A stretch of DNA of 24,000 nt from Bacillus solimangrovi. GTDB lineage: Bacteria; Bacillota; Bacilli; Bacillales; Bacillaceae_N. The DNA lies in NCBI RefSeq assembly GCF_001742425.1, contig NZ_MJEH01000002.1, positions 59,793 through 83,792 on the forward strand, read 5' to 3'. The number at the start of each line of letters is the position of its first letter. Position 1 is the first letter of the stretch. Both the position numbers and the translations under genes were made by a program. The notes beneath the pieces are model-generated. The model worked only from the letters and a program-made list of their open reading frames with translations. It made no database searches and was not told where the DNA came from. Below are positions 13,638 through 20,878 of the stretch, piece after piece.

Positions 13638-13687
13638 ATACAGTATGTTAACTAGATATGTTATTATTGTCAAGAGGAGGAAGAAAA

Positions 13688-14326
13688 ATGAGTAGAAAAC
13701 GCTTAACCCAGGAAGAACGAAAACAAGAAACACGGAAAATGTTATTGGAATCAGCAGCTGAAACTTTTGCTAAGCTTGGTTTTCATGGAGCTTCTGTAGA
13801 TAAAATCGCAGAGTTTGCTGGATTCACTAAAGGAGCAATATACGCACATTTTAAATCTAAAGAAGAGTTATTCCTTGCCTTATTAGAACAACAAATGCAA
13901 TCACATGTTAATACCATTCATCAAATAATGGATGAAGAACATTCATTAGAACATTTCATTAAAAAAATGGGGCATTATTTTGACATGGATAGAGAGCAAA
14001 ATCAAGCCTGGAGTTCACTTAATATGGAATTTCTTTTATATGCTATGAGAGATGAATCAGTACGCCAAAAATGGACAGACATGATCTTGGAATCCGTAGA
14101 ACAACTTTCAGATGTAATAACAAAAATGAAGTCGGATGAAGAGGGAGAATCTAATTTGTCACCTGAAGAACTAGCCTGGACCATTCTATCAATAGAAAAT
14201 GGGATGGCTATTTTTAATATTATTGCAGGAAACAATACCCCATCAAATTTATACGGAAAAGCACTACAAAATATTCTCCAGCCTTCCTCGTGTAAAGACA
14301 TTGATTCAAGCTCCAAAATAAAATAG
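13688..14326 (+). CDS. TetR/AcrR family transcriptional regulator
   Basis: ATG 13688 lies 7 nt after GAGGAGG (13674-13680). The N-terminal HTH (FHGASVDKIAEFAGFTKGAIYAHFKSKEELF) is a typical TetR signature. The gene is divergent from the ABC operon. Confidence 0.9.
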   Translation: MSRKRLTQEERKQETRKMLLESAAETFAKLGFHGASVDKIAEFAGFTKGAIYAHFKSKEELFLALLEQQMQSHVNTIHQIMDEEHSLEHFIKKMGHYFDMDREQNQAWSSLNMEFLLYAMRDESVRQKWTDMILESVEQLSDVITKMKSDEEGESNLSPEELAWTILSIENGMAIFNIIAGNNTPSNLYGKALQNILQPSSCKDIDSSSKIK

Positions 14327-14364
14327 TTCCAAACGATCAATATTTTTCTGTCTATTATATATTT

Positions 14365-14392
14365 AGGCTGTCGTACTAATTTTCGACAGCCT
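14365..14392 (+). terminator. Hairpin downstream of the TetR gene (possible terminator)
   Basis: A perfect 9-bp stem aggctgtcg (14365-14373) / cgacagcct (14384-14392). No clear T-tract follows. Confidence 0.35.
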
Positions 14393-14494
14393 GAAACGTA
14401 TCCCAAAAGTTATTAATAGTATGAAAAAAACAACATGAAAGGCAAACATCGTTTAAATTTCAAGCTGATTAATGTTCTTCCAAACAGATTAATG

Positions 14495-14530
14495 GTAAAA
14501 TAAAGAACCTAACCATGTTAAGGCTAGGTT
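14495..14530 (-). terminator. Probable terminator of the 14538-15023 gene
   Basis: A 9-bp stem with one mismatch: aacctaacc (14506-14514) / ggctaggtt (14522-14530). It is followed on the minus strand by ctttatttta. Confidence 0.5.
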
Positions 14531-14537
14531 AAATTAA

Positions 14538-15023
14538 TTATAATGAAAATTCTTTTTTTAAAATCTTCGCATAGATATTGCCGTTATTTAAAAATGTTGA
14601 TTCATCTAAGATTCTAGAGTTATCCCAATTCAATAATACTTGTGGGATTCTTAAATAAAACTCTAGACCATTCCAACCTATAGAATCAAAATTATGAATA
14701 CAGTAATCTATGAAATTAGCAATATCTTTTTCATTAAAGGTTATATTAATTAAATCATCCCTAAAACTATCTATGTACTCGCTTGAATGTGAAGTACCTG
14801 TCAGATTACCGGCAAAATATCCTCCACTTTGACTAAAAGATAAAAATTGAATATCATTTTTAAATACAGTTTTAGGTATTTCTAAAATAGCTTTAGCATT
14901 GTCCTTTGTTATTTCATATCTTCTTACTAATTCAATTAACATTTCAATATCCGAAAGATCAAAGTTTTCATTTAAAAATTTTTTATATAATTGATTAAAC
15001 ATTCTAGAAATTTCAATATCCAA
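14538..15023 (-). CDS. Hypothetical protein, 161 aa, no recognised motif
   Basis: TTG 15023 lies 7 nt after AGGAG (complement of 15031-15035). It is the only long ORF at this position and has its own terminator. I recognised no family. Confidence 0.6.
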   Translation of the reverse strand: MDIEISRMFNQLYKKFLNENFDLSDIEMLIELVRRYEITKDNAKAILEIPKTVFKNDIQFLSFSQSGGYFAGNLTGTSHSSEYIDSFRDDLINITFNEKDIANFIDYCIHNFDSIGWNGLEFYLRIPQVLLNWDNSRILDESTFLNNGNIYAKILKKEFSL

Positions 15024-15144
15024 ATTACCACTCCTAATATTTAGAATTATTTGTATTTTATCACAGATTAATTTTTTCGCAAATTCCCAATAAATCTACT
15101 ATGACTCATCAAAATTATGAATATCAAGTCCATTTTTAAACGTA

Positions 15145-15507
15145 ATGAAAAAATTAAAAGCTCAAGAACAAACAATTAATTCTAAAACTTGTTTTGGAGA
15201 TATATTAGAAGAGGCGTTGAAGAAAGCATATGCGGACATCCGAACTTGGTGTGAATTAATTGTGGAAGAGGGTTTCTTTAATAATGTTATACGGAGATAT
15301 GAGCCAAATATTATGTTTACAAAAGTTAAGGATATTAAGGGTGACTTTGTTAATGAACTTGCTTCAGTAACTGATTTATTTGAAAAATCTTGTCGTTGGA
15401 TGACTGGACACAGTCAGCATACCGAGACTCAGCATATTCGGGCAACTAAAGAGTCTTTTAATGACGATATAAAATATATTCATAGACTTTACGAGCAATA
15501 CAAGTAA
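15145..15507 (+). CDS. Hypothetical protein, 120 aa; possibly a 3' gene remnant
   Basis: A clean ORF, but ATG 15145 has no Shine-Dalgarno and an in-frame stop lies at 15118. It is co-directional with the next three genes. Confidence 0.4.
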   Translation: MKKLKAQEQTINSKTCFGDILEEALKKAYADIRTWCELIVEEGFFNNVIRRYEPNIMFTKVKDIKGDFVNELASVTDLFEKSCRWMTGHSQHTETQHIRATKESFNDDIKYIHRLYEQYK

Positions 15508-15557
15508 AAGACTAAGTTGTTGTATTAATAAACGAGTGAAAAGCAAGAGGTGAATTT

Positions 15558-16106
15558 ATGGGGTTAAATATAAGAAACTTAAAAAAAGGATTGGAAATAA
15601 AAATTAACAAATGTATTGCTCTTTTAGGAGAAGAATACGCATCTTTAAATTACACTATATACTTTTATGAAAACCGAGAAAAACTCCTTAAAGAACAAAA
15701 AAATAAGCCTGATATGAAGGCGGAGCAATATACACAGATATTCAATGGTGAAACTGAGACTGCGGGTGTAACTATTGGAGAAATGGGGAGAATAAAAATT
15801 TTCCTATTTCTTTTCGGGGATATAAAAAGAGACCCTAATGAAATCATTAGTTTAATCGGTAATTTATATCATGAGATTCGCCATGCTTGGCAAAATGAAA
15901 ACAAGTTGTTCCAAAATGAAGAAGAAATATCTACAATTGATGGAAATCTCGATTCATATCTTAAACTGCCATCTGAAAAGGATGCATATCGATTCCAGGA
16001 AGAACAAATGCAAAAACATGGAGAAAAAATATTAGAGATTTTTGGTTTTAATTTAAAGTTTACATATCAGTTAAAGCCTGAAATAAGAAAGGTTATATAT
16101 CCATAA
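15558..16106 (+). CDS. Hypothetical protein with HExxH zinc-metallopeptidase-like motif
   Basis: GAGGTGA (15547-15553) lies upstream of ATG 15558. The motif is LYHEIRHAWQ, with downstream acidic residues (SEKDAYRFQEEQ) that could supply a third ligand. Confidence 0.65.
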   Translation: MGLNIRNLKKGLEIKINKCIALLGEEYASLNYTIYFYENREKLLKEQKNKPDMKAEQYTQIFNGETETAGVTIGEMGRIKIFLFLFGDIKRDPNEIISLIGNLYHEIRHAWQNENKLFQNEEEISTIDGNLDSYLKLPSEKDAYRFQEEQMQKHGEKILEIFGFNLKFTYQLKPEIRKVIYP

Positions 16107-16151
16107 AATCAATTTTGAGTAACGGTATCATAATAAATAAAATCATAGTAA

Positions 16152-17159
16152 TTGTTGGTGAATAGAGTGAACAAAAATGAGGTAAAAGAACATATTAGGT
16201 TTTATATGGATAACTATAATATTTATCCCCGAACACTTAAGACTGAAAATATTGGGAATAGGGATAAGCAGTTTATAGGGGATAAGAATAAGAGAAAGTG
16301 TAGATTTTGCGGAAAAGAAAAAGAAGAAACAACATTTAAAAAGGTAGCCCATGCTATACCTGAATTAGTTGGGAATAAGGTTTTGATTTCATTTGAAGAA
16401 TGTGATGAATGTAATAAAGTATTCTCTAAACTTGAAAGTGAGTTAGCAAATTATCTCTCATTTGAACGCTCTACCACAGGTATAAGAGGGAAAACTGGGA
16501 TTCCAACCTATAAGCATAAAAACGGTTTAAGGATAGAGCATGACAAAGAAAAGAGCAATAGGTTCATCATTCAAGATTATATTGACAGCGGAAACATTGT
16601 TGATGATGCCACTGATAATTCCTTTACGATAAAGGGAGAGAGATTTCCGTTTATCCCAATGGCTGTTTATAAATGTTTTGTAAAAATGGCCCTTTCGATA
16701 ATGCCCAAACATTATTTGCCTTATTTCTGGGAGACATTTGAGTGGATTAGAGAGGAAGACCATTCACAACATGGAAAAGTGGTTTGTAAAGTTTTTGAAC
16801 AGTTTATTCCAGGGGGAAAACCATTTGCTGATATAGAAATGTTCTTGGCTATACGTAAATGGGAATCGAGAGAAAAAACGCCATTTGGTATCTTTTTAAT
16901 TTGCTTCGGAAATTTTTGTTATCAGGTTTATCTACCATTTGCAGGACCAGATACTATCGAAAGTGAGTTAGAAGAATCACAAGAGACATTAAAGTATTTG
17001 TTGTTACCTTGTAAGTATGCACTGGTCTTGCCAGAAGGTACAATTCATACAATTTCTAAAGATTTTTCATCAAGTGAAAAGACGAAGGGACAAACAATAG
17101 ATATTACATACTCTTATGATAAAAAAGAGGTTTTAAGAGAATTTAAAAATGAATCATAA
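16152..17159 (+). CDS. Hypothetical protein with N-terminal CxxC...H...N...CxxC HNH-like zinc-finger module and an unknown C-terminal domain
   Basis: The sequence KCRFCGKEKEETTFKKVAHAIPELVGNKVLISFEECDECNKVF has the spacing of a zinc-finger beta-beta-alpha-Me (HNH) nuclease. The start is ambiguous: TTG 16152, GTG 16167 or ATG 16206, all in frame. Confidence 0.65.
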   Translation: MLVNRVNKNEVKEHIRFYMDNYNIYPRTLKTENIGNRDKQFIGDKNKRKCRFCGKEKEETTFKKVAHAIPELVGNKVLISFEECDECNKVFSKLESELANYLSFERSTTGIRGKTGIPTYKHKNGLRIEHDKEKSNRFIIQDYIDSGNIVDDATDNSFTIKGERFPFIPMAVYKCFVKMALSIMPKHYLPYFWETFEWIREEDHSQHGKVVCKVFEQFIPGGKPFADIEMFLAIRKWESREKTPFGIFLICFGNFCYQVYLPFAGPDTIESELEESQETLKYLLLPCKYALVLPEGTIHTISKDFSSSEKTKGQTIDITYSYDKKEVLREFKNES

Positions 17160-17231
17160 TAACAAAAACTAATCGTTTTAAGGATTAGCTTTCTTAAAAT
17201 CTTGTTAAGGAAAATAGGGAGGGTAAGATAA

Positions 17232-17648
17232 ATGGAAACAAATGAAAAAGAAGAATTGATGCTCTTGAGTCGTGAAGCTGTGTTAAATGAAATAGGAATT
17301 AAGAGTGAGGTTGAACTTGCAGAAAACAGCAATTTCTTAAGATTCTTAGGTTTAACTAATAGACTTGATATAAGAGTTTTAGAGAAAATGCTCCCAGCAA
17401 TTCCGAATGTGACAAATCTACTTAAGCAAAATCAGGATTTTATACTAAATGGTATAAAGGAGCAAAAAGAGGTTTCTGTTAAGGCACTCGAAAGTTTTAA
17501 TAAAACAAAAGAAATCATTGCTGAAAAATTAAAAAAGGATAATCTCACTCCCGAACAATGGATAGAACTTATAAAATTGCTCGATAAAAGTAAACGCCAA
17601 GCAACCCCTGATTATACAACAGAAGTTGTTAATTTAGAGGTTGCTTGA
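17232..17648 (+). CDS. Hypothetical helical protein, 3' end replaced by IS66 sequence (disrupted gene)
   Basis: GGGAGGG lies 8 nt upstream of ATG 17232. From 17590 onward the reading frame runs inside the IS66 terminal repeat, so the last ~19 codons and the stop are IS-derived. Confidence 0.5.
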   Translation: METNEKEELMLLSREAVLNEIGIKSEVELAENSNFLRFLGLTNRLDIRVLEKMLPAIPNVTNLLKQNQDFILNGIKEQKEVSVKALESFNKTKEIIAEKLKKDNLTPEQWIELIKLLDKSKRQATPDYTTEVVNLEVA

Positions 17649-19251
17649 CGTGTGTATCACTTTTTATCGGTACCTTGCAAATAGCCGGTAGATCCGTTGA
17701 CCACGGCAAAACTTTATCGATTTCTTCTTTATTGGTTAAATCGATATTTGGTAGCACTTCAAACAAATATTGAAGATAATGAAAAGGACTTAAACCATTC
17801 TCTTTTGCGGTTTCAACCACACTATACATCACGGCACTCCCTCTAGCACCTCGCGGTGTATTCGAGAACATCCAATTTTTTCTCCCAATCACAAACGGTT
17901 TAATGGAACGTTCACTTCTGTTGTTATCGATTTCTAAATGACCATCTAATAAAAACGCTTCAAGTTGATTCCATTGATTCAAACAATAAGTAATCGCTTT
18001 GCCAAGGGCGCTTTTGGGTAAAACACGATCCTTTTGTTCATGAAGCCATGCTGAAAAAAGGTCCAAAATGGGCCTGCTTTTTTCAAGTCTCTGCTCATAT
18101 CGTTCTGTAGGGGTGACATGCTTGAGTTTTTTCTCGATAGAATAAAGTTGATTACAAAAGCGTAAACCTTCGCTCGCCTTCACCTTTTTCCTCTCTTGTA
18201 AGTCAGGTAAAGCCTTTAAAGCTTCATCAAACTTACGTCTCGCATGCGCCCAACATCCCACAAGGATAACATCCGGTACCTGATTATAACCACGATATCC
18301 ATCTACTTGTAAAAACCCTTGAAAACCCGTTAAAAAACTTTTCGGATGCTCGCCTGCTCTTGTTGGTTGATAATCATAGAGAACAATCGGGATATCTTCT
18401 TGTCCTGTACGATATAACCACAGATAAGATTTGGTTGTAGCTGATCGTCCAGGTTCACGTAAGACTTGGAAAGTCGTTTCATCCGCATGAAGGATGGTTC
18501 GATTAAGCAGATGTTCATGCATCCTTTCATATAAAACCACTAACCATTGATCAGCTCCATATAATAACCAATTTCCCATCGTTTGTCGTGATAAAAAAAT
18601 TCCCATTCGTTCAAAATGTTTTTCTTGACGATAAAGAGGTAAACCTTCTACATATTTTTGAGACATAATATACGCCATAATGGAGGGAGAAGCGATACTT
18701 TTAGGAAAGGCAGGTGCTGGCATATTCGCTGTTACAATCGGCGTAGCGATCTCATCTTGTTCACACTGACGACAAGCATAGACATATCGTTTATGTTCCG
18801 TCACCTTTACTTCCGCAGGAACAATTGTCAGTTCCTTTCGGACTTCTACACTCATCTCATGTAACGTACCACCACAGCATGAACAAACCTGTTCTTCATC
18901 AGCTAAACGATATTCAACCGTTTCGATAGGCAAGTTTTGGACAGACTCATCCCTATGACCACGTTTCTTTTTACGACGATAGGTGATCGTTTCAACAGCT
19001 GGTTCGGGTACTTCAGAATCACTTTCTTTCTCGGCCTCATTAAACAGTTCTAGAGCGAGTTGATTTTCCGGTGTTTTTTCGCTAGACGTACCAAACTGTT
19101 TTTGTTGGCTAAGACGAAATTGTTCTTCGTACCATCTCACTTTTTCCGTGAGTTCTTCTACTTGAGATTGAAGAGATTCAATTGTAGGTTGAGTGGAATG
19201 TATTGTTTTCATAGATAAAGGGATTCGACAAGAATATTCAAATTCCTTCAT
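17629..19251 (-). CDS. tnpC: IS66 family transposase TnpC
   Basis: 540 aa. An N-terminal leucine-zipper-like helix is followed by a Cys cluster (CSCCGGTLHEM...YACRQCEQ) and a DDE-type core (HADETTFQVL, VDGYRGY, GCWAHARRKF). This matches IS66 TnpC. Confidence 0.9.
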   Translation of the reverse strand: MKEFEYSCRIPLSMKTIHSTQPTIESLQSQVEELTEKVRWYEEQFRLSQQKQFGTSSEKTPENQLALELFNEAEKESDSEVPEPAVETITYRRKKKRGHRDESVQNLPIETVEYRLADEEQVCSCCGGTLHEMSVEVRKELTIVPAEVKVTEHKRYVYACRQCEQDEIATPIVTANMPAPAFPKSIASPSIMAYIMSQKYVEGLPLYRQEKHFERMGIFLSRQTMGNWLLYGADQWLVVLYERMHEHLLNRTILHADETTFQVLREPGRSATTKSYLWLYRTGQEDIPIVLYDYQPTRAGEHPKSFLTGFQGFLQVDGYRGYNQVPDVILVGCWAHARRKFDEALKALPDLQERKKVKASEGLRFCNQLYSIEKKLKHVTPTERYEQRLEKSRPILDLFSAWLHEQKDRVLPKSALGKAITYCLNQWNQLEAFLLDGHLEIDNNRSERSIKPFVIGRKNWMFSNTPRGARGSAVMYSVVETAKENGLSPFHYLQYLFEVLPNIDLTNKEEIDKVLPWSTDLPAICKVPIKSDTHVKQPLN

Positions 19252-19260
19252 CTGTAATTA

Positions 19261-19617
19261 TTATAGAATCGTTCTTGCATGTACGGCTTGATGTCCTTGT
19301 TTTTGATGAAAAGAAAATCCATCAAGAAGCCATCTAAACTGCCGTCTTGATATGGTAAGTGGTACATTAGGAGATTGAGTTGGCCATTCAAACGTTCCCT
19401 TTTCTAACCTGCGATAGTGCAACCAAAAACCATTATGTTCCCAAACAAGAATTTTTAGTTTATCGCGTGAGCGATTGCAAAAAACAAATAAACAAGAAGA
19501 AAAGGGATCTAACTCAAACTCTTCCTTTACAATGACTGCGAGTCCATCAATAGATTTACGTAAGTCAGTTGCCCCTTGTGCCAGGTATACCTTTTCAATC
19601 GCTTTTTCTGAAATCAT
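19261..19617 (-). CDS. tnpB: IS66 family accessory protein TnpB (Orf2)
   Basis: 118 aa. DLRKSIDGLAVIV...LFVFCNRSRDKLKILVWEHNGFWLHYRRLEKGTFEWP is the characteristic IS66 Orf2 sequence. It overlaps the tnpA stop by 4 nt. Confidence 0.9.
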   Translation of the reverse strand: MISEKAIEKVYLAQGATDLRKSIDGLAVIVKEEFELDPFSSCLFVFCNRSRDKLKILVWEHNGFWLHYRRLEKGTFEWPTQSPNVPLTISRRQFRWLLDGFSFHQKQGHQAVHARTIL

Positions 19618-19934
19618 AATTCTTTTACCGACTGCATGACTTGGAGAAGTACTTGTGAAGTAAAAGGTCCATCTAGTTCGATGGTTACTTCATTCATATG
19701 AATACGAATGGTAGTATTGATTTCTTCTTCTATAGTAGGAACACTCATTGGAATCCAATTTGCGGACTTATTCTTATTTGGTTCTTCCGTTTCAGGGGAT
19801 AATTTTTTCAGCCAGTAATAAAGCCGATGAACCGGAAGGTTCTGTTTTTGACACCAAGCAGCTTTTGATAGCCCACTTTCTTTAAAGTCAAGGATATAGG
19901 CTTCCCATTCTTTCTCTATTCGTTGTTTTTTCAT
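19614..19934 (-). CDS. tnpA: IS66 family accessory protein TnpA (Orf1, HTH)
   Basis: I place the start at ATG 19934, 7 nt after GGGAGG. The track's GTG at 19949 sits on top of that RBS. It is a small HTH-like protein (GLSKAAWCQKQNLPVHRLYYWLKK). Confidence 0.8.
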   Translation of the reverse strand: MKKQRIEKEWEAYILDFKESGLSKAAWCQKQNLPVHRLYYWLKKLSPETEEPNKNKSANWIPMSVPTIEEEINTTIRIHMNEVTIELDGPFTSQVLLQVMQSVKEL

Positions 19935-20047
19935 AGAAAAACCTCCCACATATATCAGTATGTAAGAGATTATCTCATGGATTATTTACAGATTGTACGT
20001 GGGCACTATTTGACGCTTACTTCCAAACAGATGACAAGTTATTGATT

Positions 20048-20097
20048 TCTAAAAAACCGATAAATACACATATATTACAATGTGTACTTATCGGTTT
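20048..20097 (-). terminator. Rho-independent terminator of the thioesterase operon
   Basis: A 17-bp stem with one mismatch: aaaccgataaatacaca (20054-20070) / tgtgtacttatcggttt (20081-20097). It is followed by T6 on the minus strand, 23 nt after the stop at 20120. Confidence 0.8.
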
Positions 20098-20119
20098 ATG
20101 TATTTCTTTATATTTGAAA

Positions 20120-20878
20120 TCATTTCTTTAATAGGTCATTACTAATAATCTCTAATACTTCTGCTGTACGATTATTAAGGAAGAAGTGCTCACCTTCAAC
20201 TTGATGCACCTCACAATTATTAGAAGTGTGTTCCCTCCATTCTTCTAAATATTCAATAGAAGTATAAGGATCATTTGTTCCACCTATTACTGTAATGGGG
20301 ATATTTAATATTTTTTCTTGTTCATAAGAATATGTCTCCACCATTTTAAAATCGTTCCTAATAATAGGTATAACGAACTCCATTAGTTCTTTATTTTGCA
20401 AAAGTAACTCTGGTGTTCCATTTAGTTCTCTGAGTCGATTAATAAATGTTTCTTGGTCAAGTTTATGAATTGGTGGTTTTAAACGAGGAATATGAACTGC
20501 ATTTCTTCCAGATAAAAACAGCCTTTCTGCATTATTAATCTTTCTTCTTCTCAACTCTCTTGCTAACTCAAAACAAATCAACGCTCCCATACTATGACCA
20601 AATAAAGCATATGGTCTATCAATATATGGCTCAATTTCCTTCGCAATTTCTTTAACTAAAAAAAGAATATTATCATATGATGCCTCACCTATTCGATTTT
20701 CACGTCCTGGTAGTTGTATTGGACATACTTCTATTTTATTTGAAATACTAGACATCCATTGATGATAAATTGTTGCTCCCCCACCTGCGTATGGTAAGCA
20801 AAAAAGACGTACGGAACTACTATTAGAAAATTTATTAACAAATAACCAAGGACTATTTTTCATTACCGTTTTTTGCAT
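20120..20878 (-). CDS. Type II thioesterase (NRPS/PKS editing thioesterase, GrsT/SrfAD-like)
   Basis: AGGAG lies 7 nt upstream of ATG 20878. The protein has FCLPYAGGGATIY, the GHSMG nucleophile elbow and a C-terminal GEHFF histidine motif. Confidence 0.9.
   Translation of the reverse strand: MQKTVMKNSPWLFVNKFSNSSSVRLFCLPYAGGGATIYHQWMSSISNKIEVCPIQLPGRENRIGEASYDNILFLVKEIAKEIEPYIDRPYALFGHSMGALICFELARELRRRKINNAERLFLSGRNAVHIPRLKPPIHKLDQETFINRLRELNGTPELLLQNKELMEFVIPIIRNDFKMVETYSYEQEKILNIPITVIGGTNDPYTSIEYLEEWREHTSNNCEVHQVEGEHFFLNNRTAEVLEIISNDLLKK

What the first reader, a model, noticed from the sequence alone, without database searches (positions are those of the whole stretch)
14478..20032. Identical 12-nt direct repeat brackets the hypothetical-gene island plus the IS66 element
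TTCCAAACAGAT occurs at 14478-14489, in the spacer between the TetR terminator and the first island gene. It occurs again at 20021-20032, immediately abutting the IS66 right end. Random 12-mer coincidences do occur somewhere in 24 kb of AT-rich DNA. By a rough composition-based estimate, though, the specific 12-mer flanking the IS end recurs by chance with probability under 1%. The ~5.5-kb segment from 14490 to 20020 would then be an insertion into an ancestral TetR/thioesterase intergenic spacer. This fits its AT-richness and lack of housekeeping content. The 12 nt exceed the 8-bp duplication usual for IS66, so the mechanism is unclear.
Basis: partly seen in the sequence, partly recalled or inferred. 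Interest (0 to 1): 0.6.

Follow-up and report, generated by a model that had tools for sequence, protein, structure and literature searches.

The report
12-nt repeat bracketing IS66 mosaic island
The identical 12-base repeat is real, but the 5.5 kb it brackets is a patchwork of three unrelated pieces, so it is more likely an ordinary insertion-sequence scar plus a coincidence than the footprint of one insertion.

Summary
TTCCAAACAGAT sits at 14478-14489 and 20021-20032 and nowhere else in the 3.84-Mb genome. The right copy abuts the last base of an intact IS66-family element (17590-20020).

The bracketed DNA is not one unit. It has three parts:
- 14490-15141: an extremely AT-rich piece carrying a real but uncharacterised 161-aa gene.
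- 15142-17589: 99.3-99.4% identical to part of a four-gene PDC-S06-type defence cassette. That cassette is intact in four other assemblies, as cargo of Tn7-like elements. Here it is cut inside its 851-aa ATPase gene and, at the other end, by the IS.
- 17590-20020: the IS itself, a new isoform about 85% identical to its nearest relatives.

The IS has no 8-bp target duplication (CGATAAAA on the left, TTCCAAAC on the right), although relatives make perfect 8-bp duplications.

No empty site could be found. The sister species lacks the whole window, and tetR and thioesterase are not adjacent in any relative searched.

A random 12-mer recurs within 6 kb in 0.76% of trials. My verdict is that the repeat is most likely (about 0.5) a coincidence next to an IS-mediated deletion joint. 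A genuine duplication from IS66-driven co-mobilisation (about 0.3) is not excluded.

The parts
13688..14326 (+). TetR-family regulator gene, the left neighbour. It is divergent from an ABC-transporter operon and has typical G+C (34.6%).
   Evidence: Pfam TetR_N, E 2.6e-15. The gene call is 212 aa. Orthologues reach 78% identity in other Bacillales, in other genomic contexts. G+C.
14478..14489 (+). Left copy of the 12-mer TTCCAAACAGAT, preceded by C at 14477. It overlaps an 8-bp local direct repeat GATTAATG (14467-14474 and 14487-14494).
14490..15141 (-). Very AT-rich orphan segment. It carries a 161-aa gene (14538-15023, minus strand), its terminator (14506-14530) and its promoter region.
   Evidence: G+C 24.7%, the 0.2th percentile of the genome. 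No homologue among 5.8 billion proteins by word search. 41 remote full-length homologues at 36% identity or less by HMMER, so it is a real family. No Pfam or PDB match. Terminator. No DNA match to the cassette loci.
15134..15141 (+). The octamer TTTTAAAC immediately left of the cassette breakpoint. It matches the IS right-flank octamer TTCCAAAC at 6 of 8 positions.
   Evidence: Read directly from the sequence.
15142..17589 (+). Stump of a four-gene PDC-S06-type defence cassette. It contains the last 120 codons of an 851-aa AAA_13 ATPase (15145-15507), a 182-aa HExxH protein (15558-16106), a 335-aa HNH protein (16152-17159), and the first 119 codons of a 177-aa membrane protein (17232-17589).
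   Evidence: 99.3-99.4% identity over 2448 bp to L104, L113 and L114, and in two pieces to L112. All four carry the intact cassette next to TniQ/TnsD genes. PADLOC PDC-S06 matches profile positions 750-847 of 851. Pfam HNH_5. phrog_26663.
17590..20020 (-). Intact IS66-family element of 2431 bp. Left end GTAAACGCCAAG..., tnpC 17629-19251, tnpB 19261-19617, tnpA 19614-19949, right end ...TTTGACGCTTAC. The flanks are CGATAAAA and TTCCAAAC, so there is no target duplication.
   Evidence: Pfam DDE_Tnp_IS66 (E 6.7e-103), zf-IS66, LZ_Tnp_IS66 and TnpB_IS66. Ends fixed by alignment to relatives. Uniformly about 85% identical to Bacillus cereus-group copies. Single copy in the genome.
20021..20032 (+). 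Right copy of the 12-mer, abutting the IS right end. From 20025 it also reads AAACAGATGA, the same 10 nt that span the IS insertion point in the uninterrupted 177-aa gene.
20120..20878 (-). Type II thioesterase gene, the right neighbour, in a cluster with an S12 hydrolase and a PPTase.
   Evidence: Pfam Thioesterase, E 1.4e-47. The best hit among 300 genomes of the order is 38% identical.

Best explanation
The 5.5 kb is a multi-step mosaic, not one insertion, and the 12-mer match is most likely a coincidence next to an ordinary IS scar.

Inferred order of events:
1. An AT-rich gene of unknown function (the 161-aa gene) already lay convergent to tetR.
2. A piece of a PDC-S06-type defence cassette, normally cargo of Tn7-like elements in other Bacillales, was acquired recently next to it.
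3. A lineage-specific IS66 element inserted into the last gene of that cassette, after CGATAAAA, which is a typical target for this IS group.
4. An IS-mediated adjacent deletion (or a recombination with a lost second copy) then removed the 3' part of that gene and whatever followed. This joined the IS right end to TTCCAAAC in the 3' spacer of the thioesterase gene.

That explains why the IS has two unrelated flanks and no 8-bp duplication.

Shown: the mosaic structure, the exact breakpoints, the missing duplication, and the absence of the deleted gene part from the genome.
Inferred: the order of events, the deletion mechanism, and that the second TTCCAAACAGAT 5.5 kb away is chance.
For: The IS ends are exact and its flanks differ: CGATAAAA versus TTCCAAAC.

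Relatives make perfect 8-bp duplications that abut GTAAGCG ends:
- 7 of 9 copies in Paenibacillus psychroresistens do so.
- A 3747-bp composite in Bacillus yunxiaonensis is flanked by TTTTGGTA.

The uninterrupted gene reads CGATAAAA|CAGATGATAG in four alleles. Its 3' part is absent from the whole genome.

The three parts have different histories:
- Cassette homology stops exactly at 15142 and 17589 in four independent assemblies.
- The cassette has 99.3% relatives, whereas the exact IS proteins occur only in this strain's own runs and the nearest IS is 85% identical.
- The 161-aa gene has no relative above 36% identity.
Co-transfer of all three parts from one donor is therefore unparsimonious.

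There is no IS66-like end at 14486-14800 or at 15100-15400. There is no similarity beyond 13 nt between the two repeat sites.

An empirical 0.76-1.1% of random 12-mers recur nearby, and TTCCAAAC itself occurs five times on this strand of the window.

Unchecked notes from this scan record other IS66 copies without duplications at deletion scars.
Against: The left copy does not fall just anywhere. It lies in the roughly 210-nt gap between tetR and the 161-aa gene, where composition says a foreign/native boundary must be. This lowers the chance probability to roughly 1e-4 to 1e-3.

The first 8 nt of the repeat are exactly what half of an IS66 duplication would look like.

Two further coincidences are left unexplained:
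- The right flank shares 10 nt (AAACAGATGA) with the uninterrupted target gene at the insertion point.
- The cassette breakpoint starts with GTAA and is preceded by TTTTAAAC, which matches TTCCAAAC at 6 of 8 positions.

No allele without the deletion has been seen.
Confidence: 0.5

Rival explanations
1. The repeat is a genuine target duplication. IS66 transposase joined the IS right end to TTCCAAAC in an ancestral tetR/thioesterase spacer, and the IS moved together with the 3.1 kb beyond its left end (161-aa gene plus cassette stump). The left joint was not made by an IS end. It was made by an illegitimate join using the microhomology AGAT, which extends the 8-bp duplication to 12 bp.
For: - The exact 12/13-mer is unique in the genome, with one copy flush with the IS terminus and the other in the compositional boundary gap.
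- The first 8 nt equal the duplication length of this IS family.
- This IS lineage can carry DNA lying beyond its left end inside an 8-bp duplication, as in L028, with the same unit in L044.
- The joined flanks would give a plausible 250-nt convergent spacer with two terminators.
Against: - There is no IS66-like end or remnant at 14486-14800. In L028 the second end is a true inverted IS fragment.
- 12 bp is not the family's 8 bp.
- One-ended movement is not documented for IS66, to my knowledge.
- It needs an unsampled donor in which the cassette stump, the orphan gene and this IS were already joined, although only the cassette has close relatives in public data.
- No empty site was found.
Confidence: 0.3
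2. The mobile unit is 15142-20020. The transposase used the true right end and a surrogate left end (GTAATG...) inside the ATPase gene, in the manner of ISEcp1-type transposition units. TTTTAAAC and TTCCAAAC would then be a decayed 8-bp duplication, and the 12-mer is chance.
For: - The cassette breakpoint begins with GTAA, the conserved IS66 terminus. GTAA density is 0.0053 per nt.
- The octamer to its left matches the right-flank octamer at 6 of 8 positions, about 0.6% by chance.
- Both octamers fit the A-run targets seen at other copies.
Against: - A cassette still 99.3% identical to its relatives implies a recent event, so two substitutions in 16 nt of duplication are unlikely.
- Beyond GTAA, the site is no more IR-like than average GTAA sites: it scores 8 of 14, the mode of the genome-wide distribution.
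- Local alignment to the IS ends is not significant.
Confidence: 0.1
3. The 12/13-mer is the core of attL/attR left by a site-specific recombinase that integrated a larger element, later trimmed by the IS.
For: Direct repeats of 12-13 nt are typical of att cores. The bracketed DNA is foreign.
Against: - There is no integrase or recombinase gene in or near the segment.
- There is no tRNA in the window.
- The right copy would have to coincide to the base with the IS terminus.
- There are no flanking arm-type repeats.
Confidence: 0.03

Closest known systems
IS66-family insertion sequences (IS66, IS679, ISRm14, ISCro1 type)
   Same: It has three coupled genes, tnpA-tnpB-tnpC, with the Pfam domains TnpB_IS66, LZ_Tnp_IS66, zf-IS66 and DDE_Tnp_IS66. 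Its length is 2431 bp. Its imperfect terminal inverted repeats begin 5'-GTAA.
   Different: This copy has no 8-bp duplication. It is only about 85% identical in DNA to the nearest copies found, in the Bacillus cereus group and Peribacillus, so it is a new isoform.
IS-anchored adjacent deletions
   Same: An intact IS truncates a gene, has two unrelated flanks and lacks a duplication. The missing gene part is absent from the genome.
   Different: No undeleted allele of this locus is available, so the deletion is inferred rather than mapped. The extra 12-mer match has no counterpart in those cases.
Transposition units made by an IS plus a second or surrogate end (ISEcp1-type units; the 3747-bp IS66 composite in L028/L044)
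   Same: An IS plus adjacent passenger DNA is bracketed by a direct repeat, one copy of which abuts the IS end.
   Different: In L028 the far end is a true inverted 236-bp IS fragment and the repeat is 8 bp. Here the far end has no IS-like sequence and the repeat is 12-13 nt.
PDC-S06 candidate defence system (PADLOC-DB), carried as cargo of Tn7-like elements
   Same: The 120-aa ORF matches the last 100 positions of the PDC-S06 profile. The four-gene order (ATPase, HExxH protein, HNH, small membrane protein) is the same as in L104, L113 and L114.
   Different: Only a stump is present. The ATPase lacks its first 731 codons and the last gene is cut by the IS, so the cassette is very probably non-functional.
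IS4/IS231-type elements and MIC231 cassettes (10-12-bp duplications in Bacillus; from my own knowledge)
   Same: The duplication length would fit, and these elements are known to carry passenger genes in Bacillus.
   Different: The two ends of 14490-20020 are not inverted repeats of each other, and the segment contains no IS4-family transposase or ends.

Membership tests
IS66 family insertion sequence (the element 17590-20020) | tnpA-tnpB-tnpC gene set with a DDE_Tnp_IS66 transposase | tested here: met
   Pfam: DDE_Tnp_IS66 E 6.7e-103, zf-IS66, LZ_Tnp_IS66, DDE_Tnp_IS66_C, and TnpB_IS66 E 4.9e-40. The small upstream ORF has no Pfam hit.
IS66 family insertion sequence (the element 17590-20020) | Terminal inverted repeats beginning 5'-GTAA | tested here: met
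   The left end reads GTAAACGCCAAG and the right end GTAAGCGTCAAA on the opposite strand. Homology to five full-length relatives starts and stops exactly there.
IS66 family insertion sequence (the element 17590-20020) | 8-bp target-site duplication abutting both ends | tested here: not met
   The flanks are CGATAAAA and TTCCAAAC. Relatives show perfect 8-bp duplications in 7 of 9 copies.
IS66 target-site duplication (the 12-mer pair read as such) | Length of 8 bp | tested here: not met
   The identity is 12 nt, or 13 with the IS terminal C.
IS66 target-site duplication (the 12-mer pair read as such) | Each copy abuts an IS66-type end (GTAA...) | tested here: not met
   The right copy abuts the IS right end. 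The left copy is followed by TAATGG..., which has no significant similarity to either IS end.
IS66 target-site duplication (the 12-mer pair read as such) | An empty site with one copy of the repeat exists in relatives | tested here: inconclusive
   The sister species shares no DNA with the window. The only other assemblies of this locus are identical to it. Exact flank searches in metagenomes gave 0 hits.
Composite or surrogate-end transposition unit (as in L028, or ISEcp1-like) | A second inverted IS end or IS fragment at the far boundary | tested here: not met
   L028 has a 236-bp inverted right-end fragment. The window has none at 14478-14800 or 15100-15400, and the only + strand match to GTAAGCGTCAA (two mismatches) is the IS's own left end at 17590.
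Integrase-mediated genomic island (attL/attR core) | A tyrosine or serine recombinase gene in the island, and a tRNA or other conserved integration target | tested here: not met
   No recombinase domain occurs in any ORF from 13658 to 20878. There is no tRNA or tmRNA in the window.
PDC-S06 candidate defence system | A full-length AAA_13 ATPase of about 850 aa with its partner genes | tested here: not met
   Only profile positions 750-847 of 851 are present. The intact 851-aa gene is seen in L104 and L112-L114. Window homology starts at 15142.

The most novel reading that the evidence does not exclude
An IS66-family transposase moved its element together with 3.1 kb of DNA lying beyond its left end, using only its right end. 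The other joint was made by host repair at a 4-nt microhomology, leaving a 12-bp instead of an 8-bp duplication. That would be a one-ended, ISEcp1-like gene-capture mode not described for IS66.
Probability: 0.25. Interest if true: 0.55.

Novelty: new member of a known kind. Interest (0 to 1): 0.3.

Why it matters
If the repeat is coincidental, this is routine genome decay: a recently imported anti-phage cassette killed by truncation and by an insertion sequence.

Two points are still useful. The locus defines a new IS66 isoform with exact ends. It also shows that a PDC-S06-type cassette travels between Bacillales as Tn7-like cargo.

If the repeat is a true duplication, it would show that IS66 elements can capture and move neighbouring genes with a single end. 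That matters for how defence and resistance genes spread. It would be directly testable with a simple transposition assay in a laboratory Bacillus strain.

Tried and rejected
- Empty-site search. DNA and protein searches of the same-genus genome found no tetR orthologue, no thioesterase, no S12 hydrolase and essentially no DNA of the window.
- Exact-protein look-ups found only two Logan assemblies that are 100% identical to the window.
- Exact flank patterns in metagenome contigs gave 0 hits, twice.
- Gene-order test. The best tetR orthologue (78%, Gracilibacillus) is followed by chromate-transporter genes, not by a thioesterase. Among 300 genomes of the order, 6 have a tetR orthologue and 19 have a weak thioesterase hit. 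The two are never near each other. This is uninformative because those thioesterases are 38% identical or less.
Reads were therefore not examined, and read laying was not attempted.
- Dispersed-motif idea: rejected, since there are only two copies in the genome.
- Larger hidden duplication around the repeat: rejected.
- Degenerate IS end at the left boundary or at the cassette breakpoint: rejected.
- Recombinant (chimeric) IS: no sign of one. Identity to relatives is uniform along the element.
- Island DNA in phage records: no match. In plasmid records only the 182-aa gene matched, and it lies in unrelated contexts.
- A target-sequence preference that would explain the shared AAACAGAT: not seen in other verified targets.
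- Function of the 161-aa family: no Pfam or PDB match.
- Literature search on the IS66 mechanism returned nothing specific.

Full report
**Observation.** TTCCAAACAGAT is present at 14478-14489 and 20021-20032 on the + strand. These are the only two copies in the 3.84-Mb, 64-contig genome, which has 3 copies of the 11-mer and 13 of the 10-mer. The identity extends one base to the left (C at 14477 and at 20020), and on the right that C is the last base of the IS. Beyond these 13 nt the two sites share nothing. The junctions are not an assembly artefact. The IS is single-copy, and two independent Logan assemblies of the same strain are 100% identical over 13.0 and 9.2 kb.

**The insertion sequence.**
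- Pfam identifies tnpC (17629-19251), tnpB (19261-19617) and a small tnpA-position ORF on the minus strand.
- Related copies on Bacillus cereus-group plasmids and in five genomes align from 17590 to 20020 and no further.
- The element is therefore 2431 bp, with left end GTAAACGCCAAG... and right end ...TTTGACGCTTAC.
- It is uniformly about 85% identical to those copies, which are 93-99% identical to each other. Its exact proteins occur only in this strain's runs.
- Its flanks are CGATAAAA (left) and TTCCAAAC (right), so there is no 8-bp duplication.

**What relatives of this IS do.**
- In Paenibacillus psychroresistens (63% TnpC identity), 7 of 9 copies have perfect 8-bp duplications flush with the GTAAGCG ends.
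- In the closer lineage, none of the five other full copies has matching flanks.
- For one of them, L028 from Bacillus yunxiaonensis, the partner octamer TTTTGGTA lies 1313 bp beyond the left end, after an inverted 236-bp fragment of the IS right end. There, an 8-bp duplication brackets a 3747-bp composite of IS plus passenger DNA. The same composite is 99.4% identical in Ectobacillus.
- So 8 bp is the rule. Passenger DNA can be carried, but with a true second IS end.

**The 'island' is a mosaic.**
- Window 15142-17589 is 99.3-99.4% identical to L104, L113 and L114, and in two inverted pieces to L112.
- Those loci carry an intact four-gene cassette: an 851-aa AAA_13 ATPase, a 182-aa protein, a 335-aa HNH protein and a 177-aa protein. 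The cassette lies in the cargo of elements encoding TniQ/TnsD.
- The window's 120-aa ORF matches only the last 100 positions of the PADLOC PDC-S06 profile. This confirms an earlier unchecked note that the ORF is a 3' remnant.
- Homology ends exactly at the IS left junction. The uninterrupted gene reads CGATAAAA|CAGATGATAG in four alleles, and its 3' part is absent from the whole genome.
- To the left, 14490-15141 has no DNA match to these loci. It has 24.7% G+C, the 0.2th percentile of the genome.
- That segment carries a 161-aa gene with its own terminator. The gene has only remote homologues, 36% identity or less, 41 in 1.84 billion representatives, and no Pfam or PDB match.

**Empty site.** None could be obtained.
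- The only same-genus genome shares no DNA with the window and lacks tetR, thioesterase and S12-hydrolase orthologues.
- tetR orthologues (up to 78%) lie in other contexts. The thioesterase has no relative above 38% in 300 genomes of the order.
- Exact flank searches in metagenomes found nothing.

**Weighing chance.**
- Empirically, 0.76% of random 12-mers in this genome recur on the same strand within 6 kb, and 1.1% within 12 kb.
- That is not negligible for a reader scanning both flanks of an IS.
- However, the left copy falls in the roughly 210-nt gap between tetR (typical composition) and the AT-rich gene, where a boundary is expected on independent grounds. This lowers the chance figure to about 1e-4 to 1e-3.
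- Against a real duplication: the length is 12-13, not 8. The left boundary has no IS66-like end. There is no recombinase or tRNA. The three parts have very different representation in public data. This argues that they were not delivered together from one donor.

**Best reading (about 0.5).** The locus was built in steps.
1. The cassette piece was imported next to the AT-rich gene.
2. The resident IS inserted after CGATAAAA. A-rich octamers of this kind flank many related copies.
3. An IS-mediated adjacent deletion, or recombination with a lost copy, then joined its right end to TTCCAAAC.

On this reading the 12-mer is coincidental.

**Rival readings.**
- A real duplication from IS66-driven movement of the IS plus 3.1 kb, with a microhomology joint on the left (about 0.3).
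- A surrogate-end unit 15142-20020, suggested by GTAA at the breakpoint and by TTTTAAAC matching TTCCAAAC at 6 of 8 positions (about 0.1).
- An att core left by a site-specific recombinase (about 0.03).

**Unexplained under all readings.** The right flank shares AAACAGATGA with the uninterrupted target gene exactly at the insertion point.

**Verdict.** The DNA is foreign, but a single insertion with a 12-bp duplication is not shown. The IS is a new member of a known family in an ordinary decay context. This scan has noted IS66 copies without duplications at deletion scars before, on other DNA.

Noticed in passing
window 20025-20034, and L104:10381-10395: The IS right flank reads TTCC-AAACAGATGA-CAAG. 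The uninterrupted 177-aa gene reads CGATA-AAACAGATGA-TAGAG across the very point where the IS sits. This is a 10-nt identity between the old and the new right flank of the IS, and no model I tried explains it. I estimate it as roughly 1e-3 by chance.
   Followed up: partly
window 15134-15147: The cassette breakpoint begins with GTAA (GTAATGAAAAAAT), the conserved IS66 terminus. It is preceded by TTTTAAAC, which matches the IS right-flank octamer at 6 of 8 positions. Beyond GTAA the site is not unusually IR-like.
   Followed up: yes
L028:728-4474 and L044: A 3747-bp IS66 composite (full IS, 1077 bp of passenger DNA, and an inverted 236-bp right-end fragment) is flanked by a perfect 8-bp duplication TTTTGGTA in Bacillus yunxiaonensis. 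The same unit is 99.4% identical in Ectobacillus panaciterrae.
   Followed up: yes
L104, L112, L113, L114: A four-gene PDC-S06-type cassette (851-aa AAA_13 ATPase, 182-aa HExxH protein, 335-aa HNH, 177-aa membrane protein) is nearly identical in four unrelated sequencing runs. In each it lies in the cargo of a TniQ/TnsD (Tn7-like) element. All four contigs end about 100 bp after the last gene, which suggests a repeat there. In L112 the part corresponding to window 16366-17589 is inverted, splitting the HNH gene.
   Followed up: partly
window 14467-14494: An 8-bp direct repeat GATTAATG occurs at 14467-14474 and 14487-14494. The second copy overlaps the last 3 nt of the left 12-mer and is followed at 14495 by GTAAAAT. 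This is probably chance in AT-rich DNA.
   Followed up: no
window 8755, 14327, 14478, 20021, 21051: The octamer TTCCAAAC occurs five times on the + strand of the window and never on the - strand, against 0.74 expected per strand (Poisson P about 0.001, post hoc). The copies share no further context. The copy at 14327 reads TTCCAAAC-GAT, one base short of the 12-mer.
   Followed up: partly
window 15558-16106; L011, L012: The 182-aa HExxH gene also occurs alone, at 76-77% DNA identity, on Bacillus cereus-group plasmids in unrelated neighbourhoods. On a B. toyonensis plasmid it lies next to a CD-NTase/SAVED pair.
   Followed up: partly
L026, L030, L046, L008: Four further full-length copies of the related Bacillus IS66 (93-99% identical to each other) have no matching 8-bp flanks within the DNA held. 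Whether they are also composites with a distant second end could not be checked with 0.3-1.4 kb of flank.
   Followed up: partly
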